A stretch of 64,000 nt of DNA from Hormiphora californensis. Taxonomy: Eukaryota; Animalia; Ctenophora. The DNA is taken from contig CM035355.1 of the NCBI GenBank assembly GCA_020137815.1, forward strand, positions 8,246,001 to 8,310,000, in the 5' to 3' direction. Below, piece by piece: positions 16,650-63,852 of this stretch. The translations under genes were made by a program, and so were the position numbers. Positions within the stretch are counted from its first letter, which is position 1, and the number at the start of each line of letters is the position of its first letter. A model generated the notes under the pieces. That model searched no databases. It worked only from the letters and a program-made list of their open reading frames with translations, and was not told the DNA's origin.

Positions 16650-19600
16650 TCATTTTCGTTCCATACTGTCAATTCTCTTCATGAGAGTCTCAATTAGCTC
16701 CGTCTGTGACTTGATTTTAGTTTTCAAAAACTCATTCAAATCATCATCTGTTGATTCCTGTTTCTCTTTCAACAGTCTTCGCAGCGTTATGTTAGTTGCT
16801 TGGACCTGAAACAACACGTATTTTGTACATTTTGTACATTATATCGTATGTGTAGTGTGTACATTGTGTACATTTTGTACATTTTGTACATTATGTACAT
16901 TGTGTACATTGTGTACATTGTACATTGTGTACATTGTGTACATTGTGTACATTGTGTACATTGTGCACTGTGTGTATATTGTTTGTACTTACATCGCTCT
17001 CAAATGTGGTTTGTTCATCATCTCTCAGCTCATCGTCATCATAAAATGCTGATGCAGGAGCGTAGTTGTATGCAATGTCCAGAAGATGGAACTTCCTCCA
17101 ATATTGAGGTAGTTTGTTTTCTATGGATACTATCATGGCAGCCTTCTCAAACTGTGAAACCACTAGAGCGTTCTCATACACTTTGGAAAACGTATCTGAA
17201 ACAAGGGATATGCATCATAAGATCATGGACACCATGTGATTGAAACTGTTACATAGCTAGTCTATACTGGTATAGTAGTCACATGGTCACCACGTGATTG
17301 AAACTGTTATATAGCTAGTCTAGACCGGTAGTAGTGGTATCCAGTAGTTTAGTTAGAATTGAGTTATATAGGATATAATTGAGTTGAGGGTCTACCCGAT
17401 ACCAGTCCGCCCACCTACCAGATAAGAGGGCGATAAGGAGGTTGAGGAGAATTACAGAGGATGCTATCAACCAATAAGAAATAAGAATCCTGGTAAAGGA
17501 AACGTATATTCCTCTGTTCTCAGCCAATAGAATTAGAGTATCATAACCATAATCATCCACCAGTGTGTATCTGAATACTGGAGGGGGGTGGTGGGTGGGG
17601 TGGGGGGTGGGGTGGGGGGAGGGGTTAGTTTACACTGCATAGTACCCCGGCAGCCAATAGAATTAGTGTATCATAACCATAATCATCCACCAGTGTGTAT
17701 CTGAATACTGGAGAGGGGGGGGGGGGGTGGGGTGGGGTGGGGTGGTGGGGTGGGGCGGGGGGAGGGGTTAGTTTACACTGCATAGTACCCCGGCAGCCAA
17801 TAGAATTAGTGTATCATAACCATAATCATCCACCAGTGTGTATCTGAATACTGGAGAGGGGGGGGGTGGGGGGTGGGGGGGGGGTGGGGCGGGGTGGGGG
17901 GAGGGGTTAGTTTACACTGCATAGTACCCCGGCAGCCAATAGAATTAGAGTATCATAACCATAATCATCCACCAGTGTGTATCTGAATACTGGAGAGGGG
18001 GGGGGGGGGGTGGTGGGGGGTGGGGTGGGGTGGGGGGAGGGGTTAGTTTACACTGCATAGTACCCCGGCAGCCAATAGAATTAGTGTATCATAACCATAG
18101 TCATCCACCAGTGTGTATCTGAATACTGGAGAGGGGGGGGGGGGGGGGGGGGGGGGGGGGGGGGGGGGGGGGGGGAGGGGTTAGTTTACACTGCATAGTA
18201 CCCCGGCAGCCAATAGAATTAGTGTATCATAACCATAATCATCCACCAGTGTGTATCTGAATACTGGAGAGGGGGGGTGGTGGGGTGGGGTGGGGCGGGG
18301 TGGGGCGGGGGGAGGGGTTAGTTTACACTGCATAGTACCCCGGCAGCCAATAGAATTAGTGTATCATAACCATAATCATCCACCAGTGTGTATCTGAATA
18401 CTGGAGAGGGGGGGGGGGTGGTGGGGGTGGGGACTGGGGGTGGGGTGGGGCGGGGGGGGGGGTGGGGCGGGGGGAGGGGTTAGTTTACACTGCATAGTAC
18501 CCCGGCAGCCAATAGAATTAGAGTATCATAACCATAATCATCCACCAGTGTGTATCTGAATACTGGAGAGGGGGGGGGGGTGGTGGGGGTGGGGGTGGGG
18601 TTAGTTTACACTGCATAGTACCCCGGCAGCCAATAGAATTAGAGTATCATAACCATAATCATCCACCAGTGTGTATCTGAATACTGGAGAGGGGGGGGGG
18701 GGTGGGGTGGTGGGGGTGGGGTGGGGGGTGGGGTGGGGGGAGGGGTTAGTTTACACTGCATAGTACCCCGGCAGCCAATAGAATTAGAGTATCATAACCA
18801 TAATCATCCACCAGTGTGTATCTGAATACTGGAGAGGGGGGGGGGGGTGGGGTGGGGTGGGGCGGGGGGAGGGGTTAGTTTACACTGCATAGTACCCCGG
18901 CAGCCAATAGAATTAGAGTATCATAACCATAATCATCCACCAGTGTGTATCTGAATACTGGAGAGGGGGGGGGGGGGGGGGGGGGGGGGGGGTGGGGCGG
19001 GGGGAGGGGTTAGTTTACACTGCATAGTACCCCGGCATACTGGAGAGAAATAGAGATTGGGGGAAGTCGGGATTAAATAATCTAGCCCCAATCTAGCGGT
19101 GACAACTGTATTAGTATACAGAATCAGTAAAGTGTTAGTAACTTAAGTAACAACTGTATAATCACCTGTAAAGCAGCATTGTTTGAGGTCTCCATACTTG
19201 TAGTCACTAAAATCATCGTTACTGGTTAGGGTGGAATTGTAAGTACCGTCCTTACCGGCCGAGTACAGGTGGTAAAATGAACACACCTGTGTAAAGACAC
19301 ATGGGAATGGGTGAGACGGAATGTAAAGGGGATATACAACAATTATATACTAGCTATAGGGTTTTATGGGCAGGAAATAGAACGAGTCAATTTCTGAGCA
19401 CATGAATAGCGAATTATGTTCATCATGAATGGTATGCCTATAGCATTTAAAATTAAACTCATTAATATTTTCGTACCATGGGAATGTATAGGATAATGTA
19501 AACGATGGCAGTCTTGGCGATATCTTTTGGCAGCGATGATATGATCACACAAAATGGTCCTGTGGAAAGAATTGTGATTTGGGCTGGTGTCATCTGAATC

Positions 19601-61441: not shown

Positions 61442-63852
61442 TCAGCTTTCGTATGAGACACAGAAAGCTTTTTGCATCTGTAATGCCAGTCCAGTAACAT
61501 GCAGTATTCCGTTCTAAGAAAGAGAGAGGGGTTAGAAAGTGAGAGAGAGAGAGAGAGAGAGAGAGAGGAGAGAGAGAGAGGAGAGAGAGATGAGAGAGAG
61601 AGATGAGACGAAGGAGATGAGAGAGAGACGATGAGAGAGAAGAGAGGAGGAGAGAGAGAGAGAGAGAGGAGAATATGAGAGAGAGAGACGAGAGAGGAGA
61701 GGAGAGAGAGAGAGATGAGAGAGAGAGAGAGAGAGAGAGAGAGAGAGAGAGAGAGAGAGAGAGAGAGTTGAGAATTAGTACAATACGGAAATTAAGATTA
61801 CTCTGTTTAATTACCTTGTAAGTGTAATTCGTCCAATCATCTCTGCTCTCGTTGATTTTAACTGTCCTGGGCGCTTTCTCTAACCCACTGAGAGAGAGAG
61901 AGAGACATGTTGTGAGGACAGGGGAGAGAGTAAAGACAGAGAGAGAGTAGAGACAGAGAGAGAGAGTAAAGACAGAGAGAGAGTAAAGACATGTTGAAAT
62001 GTTTACAAAGAACATTGTACAAATGTTCCTGAACGTTTTGAAAGAAACATGACAGTACTGGCTAATGAGTTTTCTAATGGTCGACTTTACTAGAATGAAG
62101 AATCGTGGTAAGAGTTGTCGAGTAAGCAGTGGACAACTACAAGAGACATGACATACAAGAGACATGATCGGACATGATCGGACAGGATTCACCCCCCACA
62201 ATCACACCCATGACAATAGGAGTGTATAATACCTGATAACTATTTCTTGGAGGGTGTTGGTATTATTGTATCCTGGGTAGAGGAGTTTAACTTCACTCGT
62301 TACACGAGTACCGGAGGCGTTGAAGTGAACTGTCTGATACATGTCCTGGGGTAATGTACATGTGAGTGGAGTGTGGATTAGTACATGTCCTGGGGTAATG
62401 TACATGTGAGTGGAGTGTGGATTAGTCTGGTACATGTCCTGGGGTAATGTACATGTGAGTGGAGTGTGGATTAGTCTGGTACATGTCCTGGGTAATGTAC
62501 ATGTGAGTGGAGTGTGGATTAGTCTGGTACATGTCCTGGGGTAATGTACATGTGAGTGGAGTGTGGATTAGTCTGGTACATGTCCTGGGGTAATGTACAT
62601 GTGAGTGGAGTGTGGATTAGTCTGGTACATGTCCTGGGGTAATGTACATGTGAGTGGAGTGTGGATTAGTCTGGTACATGTCCTGGATAGGGGGGGGGGG
62701 GGTAATGTACATGTGATGTACAATGTACATGGGGGTAATATAGTTTACCTTTCGAAGGAAAAGGTTTGGGAATATCAACTTTAAATTCTTCTTCTTTAGT
62801 CTGATTGATAATTTCAACTAACTAATCAATACCTTTGATATCGTGTCTTCAGAAACACCATCATCCACAAACAGGAAGCCTGAAGCTGACTTATCAGCTG
62901 CTAGATATACCTCCACTATGTAGTCCCCTGACTTCAGCCTGGGAGACAGAGAGGGGAGTTAGAGACAGAGAGGAGTTAGAGAAGGGGAGAGAGGGGAGTT
63001 AGAGAGGGGAGTTAGAGAAGGGGAGAGGGATTATAGACAGAGAACTACAAAGCATATTTAAACCAAGAAGCGGAACCCCAAAGGTTTCTCTAATAGTTTC
63101 TATGACTCACATTTCAGAGGTTGAGTTAGCGGTATTTAGATGCCTAACCACCACAGAACCGCCCCTTATAAAGGTAGGAATTGTCTCCATTGTTACCGAG
63201 ATATCCTTCTTCCCATTTCCAGATGTGCTCACTACAGCTCTTGTCTCACCGTCATACCAGAGGTTATCCACCCCACCAGGGAAGTACACCTCCCTCTTTG
63301 TAACTCCCTGAAATTGAATAGCAGTTGTTTGTAACTCCTTGGGGGAGGGTGAGTTTGTTACGGAGGAGAGGAAGGGGAGACCCCACCGGGGAAATACACC
63401 TCCCTCTTTGTAACTCCCTGGGAGGGGGGGGGGGGGATTTTGTTGTTACTAAACCATGTCACAATGGAGGGCATTCAAAATGAAACTGTAACTGTATGAA
63501 CTCAAGGATTTGTAAATGACATTCTACAGCTTGGAACAAGTGACTAAAGTAATTCCCTAACATGTCCCAAGATCACCCGCACCGGGGGAGGGAGAGAGCC
63601 GAGAGGTGTGTTTACCTTTATTGTTACAGGTGTCACCATGATAGCATCTCCCAACATAAACTGACTGACAATGTCCAGTGTTGAATTATCATCTAGATAA
63701 TCAAAGAAGAGTGGTTTAACAACCATAGCTCCAACAGTGTGAGCTAGATAGAACTGGGAGTAGAGGTAGGGGAGGAGCTTGTAACGAGTCTCAATTGATG
63801 TCTTGATACGGGCTGTTGCTTCAGCTGAGAATTCTGTATCCGGTGAGGTACC
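61442..63852 (-). CDS. Glycoside hydrolase family 31 alpha-glucosidase, 3' part (continues beyond window)
   Basis: Exons ~63616-63852, 63111-63307, 62833-62937, 62233-62345, 61817-61887, 61442-61513. Motifs RYKLLPYLYSQFYLAH..G..VVKPLFFDYLDD..QFMLGDAIMVTPV, VYFPG..WYD, IPTFIRGG and SGFLFVDDGVS are typical of the GH31 C-terminal region. Confidence 0.9.
62335..62690 (-). repeat. Acceptor-echo array, ~49-bp unit x 7-8
   Basis: Minus-strand unit CTAATCCACACTCCACTCACATGTACATTACCCCAG|GACATGTAYCAGA. Confidence 0.92.

What the first reader, a model, noticed from the sequence alone, without database searches (positions are those of the whole stretch)
17521..63425. Intronic echo copies differ from the exon mostly at synonymous sites
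Seen (hand tally, in the exon frame): 27781 array AGA/AGG, GAC/GAT, CCC/CCA, AAC/AAT, GCC/GCT, ACT/ACA; 23990 array TTA/CTA, CTA/TTA, CTT/CTC (all Leu, including first-position swaps); 17521 array ACT/ACA, GAT/GAC; 44130 array CAT/CAC twice, CGA/CGG; 41560 CCT/CCC; 62335 TAT/TAC; 63385 TAC/TAT, CCT/CCC; plus GGC/GGA (~6250) and CTT/CTC (~6460). That is about 20 synonymous against about 6-7 non-synonymous variants, whereas neutral intronic decay should give mostly non-synonymous changes. Inference: copies are templated repeatedly from the functional exon, archiving past or alternate alleles, or they cycle in and out of the functional position by unequal exchange/conversion so that coding selection filters them.
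Basis: partly seen in the sequence, partly recalled or inferred. Interest (0 to 1): 0.88.

Follow-up and report, generated by a model that had tools for sequence, protein, structure and literature searches.

The report
Splice-site repeats stack exon alleles
Short intronic repeats that copy the ends of exons in this comb-jelly-like animal differ from the exons mostly at silent positions, likely because the repeat units are copies of different natural alleles of the exon shuffled between chromosomes; the repeat type is already known from lancelets and humans.

Summary
Twelve of 91 exon ends have splice-site-spanning tandem copies in the adjacent intron (0 of 4,095 control pairs). Of 28 distinct exonic variants in 75 copies, 20 are synonymous against 8.3-8.8 expected after conditioning on the kind of change (P about 1e-6 to 7e-6). 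Shifted sense frames give 4-5 of 28. The repeats fit amphioxus "mirages" and the human F7 intron-7 VNTR. The silent bias looks like inherited allelic polymorphism. The species appears highly polymorphic at silent sites (about 0.18-0.2 per site between duplicated last exons). In other haplotypes the functional exon carries three of the six silent variants of the 27781 array: one listed directly, two inferred from contig overlap. There is no distance gradient, and units are recombinant mosaics. Units are therefore probably alleles of the exon end, amplified locally and mixed by exchange between homologues. Whether copies feed back into the exon is untested, and no RNA run covered the locus. This scan noted similar silent-biased arrays in other genomes (e1-7810567, e1-7142826, e1-7880682).

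The parts
4114..11851 (+). TRP-like ion channel gene, 11 modelled exons (5' part not modelled; 'TRP-like' is my reading of the sequence)
   Evidence: Open spliced frame with AG/GT; weak Ion_trans hit on one exon, E 0.012
6206..6311 (+). Donor echo array: last 34 exon bases plus GT, 2 copies; GGC>GGA, GAG>AAG at the outer edge, one 2-base deletion
6382..6528 (+). Acceptor echo array: 36 exon bases, 2 copies, both CTT>CTC
11255..11464 (+). Acceptor echo array: 10 exon bases, 4 copies, invariant
13781..14707 (+). Second copy of the last exon with its own acceptor array (13 copies, exonic part invariant); exon differs from 11455 at 17 silent and 3 replacement sites
16650..28293 (-). Ankyrin-repeat ion channel gene (TRPA-like by my reading), 18 modelled exons
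   Evidence: Pfam ankyrin hits on three exons
17521..19037 (-). Acceptor echo array: 57 exon bases, 10 copies with C-rich spacers; ACT>ACA 5/10, GAT>GAC 1/10
22050..22473 (-).
23989..24786 (-). Acceptor echo array: 54 exon bases, 5 copies; three Leu-to-Leu changes; a shorter form is seen in run X6
   Evidence: joint 24237 to 24867
25613..25860 (-).
27773..28197 (-). Donor echo array: last 36 exon bases plus an 11-12 base spacer, 8 copies; 6 silent and 3 replacement variants; three of the silent variants occur in functional alleles of other haplotypes
38147..44164 (-). Voltage-gated potassium channel gene, 14 modelled exons (first exon not located)
   Evidence: BTB_2, Ion_trans and Ion_trans_2 hits
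41561..42040 (-). Donor echo array behind a 25-base micro-exon: 9 exon bases, 9 copies; CCT>CCC 6/9
44129..45121 (-). Acceptor echo array: 36 exon bases, 15 copies; CGA>CGG, CAT>CAC, CAC>CAT, and CAC>AAC at the outer edge
61442..63852 (-). GH31 glucosidase gene, last 6 modelled exons
   Evidence: 250/265 identical to P0001, which carries PF01055 and PF21365
62332..62686 (-). Acceptor echo array: 14 exon bases, 6 full copies, all TAT>TAC
63270..63420 (-). Single acceptor echo: 38 exon bases; TAC>TAT and CCT>CCC

Best explanation
The arrays are splice-site-spanning minisatellites whose units differ from the exon mostly at silent sites, likely because each unit type is a copy of a different allele of the functional exon end. 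Shown: the arrays, the silent bias, length variation between haplotypes, mosaic units, high silent polymorphism, and sharing of silent variants between echo units and functional exons of other haplotypes (one array). Inferred step 1: slippage or unequal exchange copies the exon end plus its splice signal into the intron. Inferred step 2: only the terminal copy is spliced, so it alone is under coding selection, and alleles in the population differ there almost only silently. Inferred step 3: unequal crossover or conversion between homologues joins one haplotype's array to another's exon end, and further slippage amplifies the newcomer. The copies thus inherit variation that selection already filtered in the exon, plus some unfiltered intronic mutation; roughly 64-70% of variants would be allele-type.
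For: Silent excess 20/28. Multi-copy variants are 12/13 silent and singletons 8/15 (Fisher P 0.04). Allelic baseline: the duplicated TRP-like last exons differ at 17 silent/3 replacement sites, and the duplicated Kv last exons at 8 silent/0 replacement sites by my reading of the alignment. All 16 exonic rows among the 40 SNP rows shown (of 214) are silent. Echo 20:8 does not differ significantly from allelic 25:3 (P 0.18). In seven arrays, silent sites carry 0.33 variants per site, replacement sites 0.03 and intronic spacers 0.05, so the signal is a silent surplus. The Kv duplicates show the same ordering: about 0.2 silent versus roughly 2-8% in flanks. X5 record 17 spans 58 unique exon bases and carries AAC>AAT in the functional exon. 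X6 record 26 has two other letters and overlaps record 23 (depth 1586, about 975+576), which places AGG and CCA in its functional exon, the same pair as reference copy 8 (inferred). Crude chance for three such matches is 0.008. Four-gamete failures in the 27781 array (4 pairs) and no distance gradient. Use of an echo splice site gives an open in-frame insert in only 2 of 75 cases.
Against: Allele sharing was tested in one array of 12, in two sample labels, from contigs rather than reads, and two of the three matches rest on graph geometry. Four further contigs reaching the unique exon have differences I could not place (X1 record 6, X4 record 13, X5 records 18 and 19). Sharing does not give a direction. 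X1 record 1 departs from the assembly after the start of copy 6 (1 other letter in 82, where the assembly implies six or more), so not all reference units are confirmed. S1 may be the assembly's source and so not independent. The duplicated exons are only assumed to be allelic, and for the TRP-like pair the nearly identical 3' flank (5 substitutions in about 1,840 bases) is unexplained. Spacer counts were entered by hand and exclude C-runs, indels and five arrays. Silent polymorphism is patchy: three other X1 pieces with exon cover show no listed exonic difference.
Confidence: 0.65

Rival explanations
1. Two-way cycling with indirect selection is the main filter. Unequal exchange moves echo sequence into the functional position often enough that replacement variants arising in intronic copies are purged.
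For: Tandem geometry allows it (inference). Multi-copy variants are 12/13 silent. Five of 8 replacement variants, against 3 of 20 silent ones, lie within 4 bases of the outer edge of the echoed part, where transfer to the exon would be rarest (post hoc, Fisher P 0.02).
Against: Replacement-site density (0.03) is not significantly below spacer density (0.05; P 0.41), although spacers hold splice signals. A replacement variant at site 2 of the 27781 unit persists in echo copies in 4 of 4 runs. Edge variants may be junction features.
Confidence: 0.17
2. The arrays are a time archive: copies record older states of the exon that have since been replaced, with no exchange between alleles.
For: All full copies differ from the exon by one silent change at 62335 (6/6) and 6390 (2/2). 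In the 27781 array the two nearest copies equal the exon.
Against: No distance gradient (rho 0.04, P 0.75); in 17521 the four farthest copies equal the exon. Array variants are present in living functional alleles. Units fail the four-gamete test.
Confidence: 0.08
3. Assembly or polishing artefact: reads of the other allele were mapped onto the copies, or two haplotypes were stitched together.
For: The assembly has noisy-looking stretches, an N gap and duplicated last exons. X1 record 1 disagrees with part of the reference array.
Against: Short-read contigs of S1 and S2 carry sites 2, 3 and 12 of the 27781 unit in echo context and a joint between units. Seven unit types in one array exceed what two haplotypes would give.
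Confidence: 0.06
4. The copies are translated as cassette micro-exons and are selected directly.
For: Units at 27781 (36 bases) and 41560 (9 bases) are flanked by AG and GT and keep frame.
Against: Acceptor arrays have no donor after the echoed part yet are 12/16 silent. Spacers of 11-45 bases are below the shortest modelled intron (72). P0001 holds each echoed GH31 exon start once.
Confidence: 0.04

Closest known systems
Amphioxus 'mirage' minisatellites (Adh3; globins BflGb6 and BflGb9; PGBD5, troponin C). Ebner et al. 2010, PMC3087553, and PMC3902484: passages seen. The original Adh3 paper, PMC117041, was not held.
   Same: Tandem units spanning an exon-intron boundary at either 5' or 3' ends, duplicating splice signals; units of tens to about 160 bases; copy number differs between haplotypes; highly polymorphic marine animal.
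   Different: The passages I saw describe homogenisation within a haplotype and do not mention synonymous changes ('synonymous' occurs 0 times in PMC3087553). Here units match functional alleles of other haplotypes, and 12 of 91 exon ends are affected.
Human boundary-spanning VNTRs: F7 intron 7 (37 bp), CBS, 6-16, LAMIN B2, PDGF. Borensztajn et al. 2006, PMC1557585: abstract and passages seen.
   Same: First monomer spans the exon-intron junction; repeated pseudo-sites are mostly silent; copy number is polymorphic.
   Different: Those are donor arrays (F7 has only 4 exon bases per unit). Here 9 of 12 are acceptor arrays with 10-57 exon bases, long enough to show a coding signature.
Human minisatellite variant-repeat mosaics made by inter-allelic conversion
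   Same: Interspersed variant units and exchange between alleles.
   Different: No coding terminal unit, so no imprint of protein selection.
Silent-cassette conversion systems such as pilS/pilE, vlsE and chicken pseudo-V genes (recalled)
   Same: Non-expressed partial copies beside an expressed locus that could donate sequence.
   Different: Those are programmed and favour amino-acid change. Here variation is silent and no donation to the exon was shown.

Membership tests
Mirage / boundary-spanning minisatellite | Tandem unit spans an exon-intron boundary and repeats the splice signal | tested here: met
   12 arrays, 75 copies, each with AG before or GT after the exon part
Mirage / boundary-spanning minisatellite | Copy number varies between haplotypes | tested here: met
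   X6 joint skipping 629 bases of the 23990 array; in X6 the unique distal intron follows a unit end that differs from the reference at 27781
Mirage / boundary-spanning minisatellite | Only the authentic terminal site is used in mRNA | tested here: inconclusive
   No RNA holder listed; P0001 has each echoed GH31 exon start once; 73 of 75 shifted sites break the frame or meet a stop
Mirage / boundary-spanning minisatellite | Somatic or germline instability measured directly | not testable with these tools
   Needs small-pool PCR or pedigrees
Inter-allelic variant-repeat mosaic | Units within an array are recombinant and match other alleles | tested here: met
   One array only: 4 four-gamete pairs; three silent variants in functional exons of other haplotypes, two of them inferred
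Silent-cassette conversion system | Directional transfer from silent copies into the expressed locus | not testable with these tools
   Sharing of variants gives no direction
Silent-cassette conversion system | Variation enriched for amino-acid change | tested here: not met
   pN/pS 0.12
Cassette micro-exon array | Each copy bounded by acceptor and donor and in frame | tested here: not met
   True for 2 of 12 arrays only (27781, 41560); the nine acceptor arrays lack a donor after the echoed part

The most novel reading that the evidence does not exclude
In this animal about one exon end in eight carries an intronic stack of its own alleles that exchanges sequence with the functional exon in both directions. 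The stacks act as reservoirs and recombination hotspots for coding variation, and non-coding DNA is kept under indirect protein-level selection.
Probability: 0.25. Interest if true: 0.7.

Novelty: new member of a known kind. Interest (0 to 1): 0.44.

Why it matters
It shows how untranslated DNA can carry a strong coding signature (pN/pS 0.12) without being translated, a trap for methods that infer function from silent bias and for SNP calling at exon ends. Because unit types can be matched to alleles, the arrays give a direct way to measure exchange between homologues at splice junctions and to ask whether mirages feed variation back into exons. I found no paper reporting mirages in ctenophores or a synonymous bias in such copies, but I could not read the original mirage paper, and most subscription papers are not searched.

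Tried and rejected
No whole genome was held, so the genome-wide test was not possible. No RNA holder was listed, and the one run guessed to be RNA covered only repeat letters; this says nothing on expression. A protein search with the ankyrin exon 25483-25641 found nothing. Pfam gave no hit for 5 of 13 single exons. Transition bias and frame choice were rejected as causes. Cherry-picking was rejected: the systematic search added three arrays with 3 replacement and 0 silent variants and the excess held. A gapped unanchored search found no further decayed exon copies above the control maximum. Arrays at 7893, 19937, 28642 and 31929 were not hit by the exon-end search and were treated as purely intronic. 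A distance gradient was tested and not found. One search stopped with an error after its main output; site counts come. PMC117041 was not held. No supplements were read; the mirage alignments in the supplements of PMC3087553 might show a similar bias.
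Full report
Context. The window is animal DNA with four modelled genes: a TRP-like channel on the plus strand (4114-11851), and on the minus strand an ankyrin-repeat channel (28293-16650), a voltage-gated potassium channel (44164-38147) and a GH31 glucosidase (63852-61442). 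All modelled junctions have AG/GT and the spliced frames are open. Pfam supports the BTB, ion-transport and ankyrin parts. The GH31 part is 250/265 identical to an EukProt protein. I recall that record's id style as that of Pleurobrachia gene models, so a ctenophore is likely; no tool named the organism.

The echoes are real. An anchored search of 91 exon ends found copies of the exon end with its splice dinucleotide in the adjacent intron at 12 ends, and at 0 of 4,095 non-adjacent pairs. They hold 75 full copies with 9-57 exon bases each. Nine are acceptor arrays and three are donor arrays. Several units begin at or near a CTAAC-like branch motif (motif recalled).

The silent bias is real. 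Counting each site and allele once, there are 28 substitutions: 20 synonymous and 8 non-synonymous, plus one 2-base deletion. The expected synonymous share is 0.23-0.32 for transition ratios of 1-20. Conditional on the kind of change, 8.25 (per array) or 8.75 (pooled) are expected, P = 1e-6 and 7e-6. Shifted sense frames give 5 and 4 of 28. One antisense frame gives 13 of 28 because it shares third positions. Dropping the richest array leaves 14 of 19. Variants in several copies are 12 of 13 silent and singletons 8 of 15. pN/pS is 0.12.

It is a surplus of silent changes rather than a clear lack of replacements. In seven arrays with alignable spacers, silent sites carry 16 variants in 49 sites, replacement sites 5 in 170 and intronic spacers 9 in 172 (spacer counts entered by hand, without C-runs, indels or arrays 6206, 6390, 11266, 25600 and 63385). 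Spacers contain splice signals, so they are an imperfect neutral reference.

The species appears highly polymorphic at silent sites. The two copies of the TRP-like last exon differ at 17 silent and 3 replacement sites in 393 bases. The two copies of the potassium-channel last exon, on either side of an N gap, differ at 8 silent sites and one codon indel by my reading of the alignment, with flanks differing by roughly 2-8%. I assume these pairs are allelic; this is not shown. In contigs of public runs laid on 22550-28320, all 16 exonic rows among the 40 SNP rows shown (174 more were not shown) are silent. The echo ratio 20:8 does not differ significantly from 25:3 (P 0.18); the singleton ratio 8:7 does (P 0.02). 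The Hormiphora genome paper also reports higher SNP heterozygosity in exons than in introns and ascribes it to mapping bias (PMC8527503, passages seen).

Array variants are living exon alleles in the one array tested. On 28105-28330, X5 record 17 covers 58 unique exon bases and carries AAC>AAT in the functional exon; its distance from the contig end and its depth match the listed row. X6 record 26 comes from the unique exon, ends at 28166 and has two other letters. Its last 30 letters overlap record 23, whose depth (1586) is about the sum of the functional (975) and echo (576) contigs and which carries the site-12 change and a clipped mismatch at site 3. The X6 functional exon is therefore inferred to read AGG and CCA, the same pair as reference copy 8, while its echo adds the replacement change at site 2. 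Three matches among 6 of 26 possible silent changes have a crude chance of 0.008. The second S1 haplotype (X1 record 6, X4 record 13) and X5 records 18 and 19 have two to four further differences near contig ends that the table does not list; they were not counted. Against a clean picture, X1 record 1 follows the reference through copy 5 and the start of copy 6, then shows 1 other letter in 82 where the assembly implies six or more, so part of the reference array is unconfirmed. S1 may be the assembly's source.

Order and mosaicism. Differences do not rise with distance from the exon (pooled rho 0.04, P 0.75, six arrays), and the nearest copy equals the exon in only 3 of 12 arrays. The 27781 array has seven unit types and four site pairs that fail the four-gamete test. 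X6 shows a shorter 23990 array. This fits repeated exchange better than a time-ordered archive.

Mechanism. Shown: boundary-spanning arrays, silent bias, length variation, mosaic units, and allele sharing at one array. Inferred: local slippage or unequal exchange copies the exon end; only the terminal unit is spliced (73 of 75 shifted sites break the frame or meet a stop); exchange between homologues joins one haplotype's array to another's exon end; further slippage amplifies the new unit. The copies inherit variation already filtered in the exon. Reverse flow into the exon is possible and has one post hoc hint: 5 of 8 replacement variants lie at the outer edge, where transfer would be rarest (P 0.02). 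It is not shown. Direct translation cannot explain the acceptor arrays (12 of 16 silent, no donor) but is not excluded for 27781 and 41560, because no RNA holder was listed.

Comparison with what is known. The structure matches amphioxus mirages (PMC3087553 and PMC3902484, passages seen) and human boundary-spanning VNTRs such as F7 intron 7 (PMC1557585, abstract and passages). The original mirage paper was not held. Nine literature searches showed no report of synonymous bias in such copies or of mirages in ctenophores. Earlier notes of this scan describe silent-biased arrays in other genomes; they are unchecked leads, and they pointed me to the lancelet papers.

Verdict. What this window adds is the density (12 of 91 exon ends) and cross-haplotype allele matches at one array. 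Interest 0.44.

Noticed in passing
window 11455-13700 versus 14311-16560: A tandem 2.86 kb duplicate of the last exon and its 3' flank: the exon copies differ at 20 of 393 bases (17 silent), while about 1,840 flanking bases differ at only 5 substitutions. It may be a large echo with an exon from another allele, or stitched haplotypes with homogenised repeats.
   Followed up: partly
window 31330-33380 versus 37240-38640: Second copy of the potassium-channel last exon and 3' region next to an N gap, probably an uncollapsed haplotype.
   Followed up: partly
window 23016-23484 and duplicated exons: Silent-site polymorphism (about 0.18-0.27 per site in some exons) looks several times higher than nearby non-coding SNP density, but it is patchy between exons.
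   Followed up: partly
window about 19035-19060, 24782-24830 and 26180-26200 (minus strand): Beyond the far end of three acceptor arrays lies a remnant or copy of the exon start behind a different upstream acceptor sequence, with C-rich (G-rich on the plus strand) tracts between; possibly an older acceptor displaced by insertion plus duplication.
   Followed up: no
window 22755-22880 and 41230-41310 (minus strand): Very short echoes (acceptor plus 5-6 exon bases) below the search threshold; the first varies in length in runs X5 and X6.
   Followed up: no
window 27773-28197 and 41561-42040: Units are frame-preserving and bounded by AG and GT, so they could act as cassette micro-exons if two or more units are skipped.
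   Followed up: partly
window 2000-3415: Large inverted-repeat element built from 11-base subrepeats, foldback-transposon-like by my reading.
   Followed up: no
window 12305-13590, 15160-16445 and 56745-56925: Family of elements with matching inverted ends, probably non-autonomous DNA transposons.
   Followed up: no
window 11985-12065, 14835-14915, 40465-40545 and 58008-58085: A dispersed repeat of about 75 bases in 3' flanks and introns.
   Followed up: no
window 33500-36000, 45120-52500 and 54800-56100: Stretches that look like noisy unpolished long-read sequence; the region near 46500-49300 resembles a damaged retroelement by eye.
   Followed up: no
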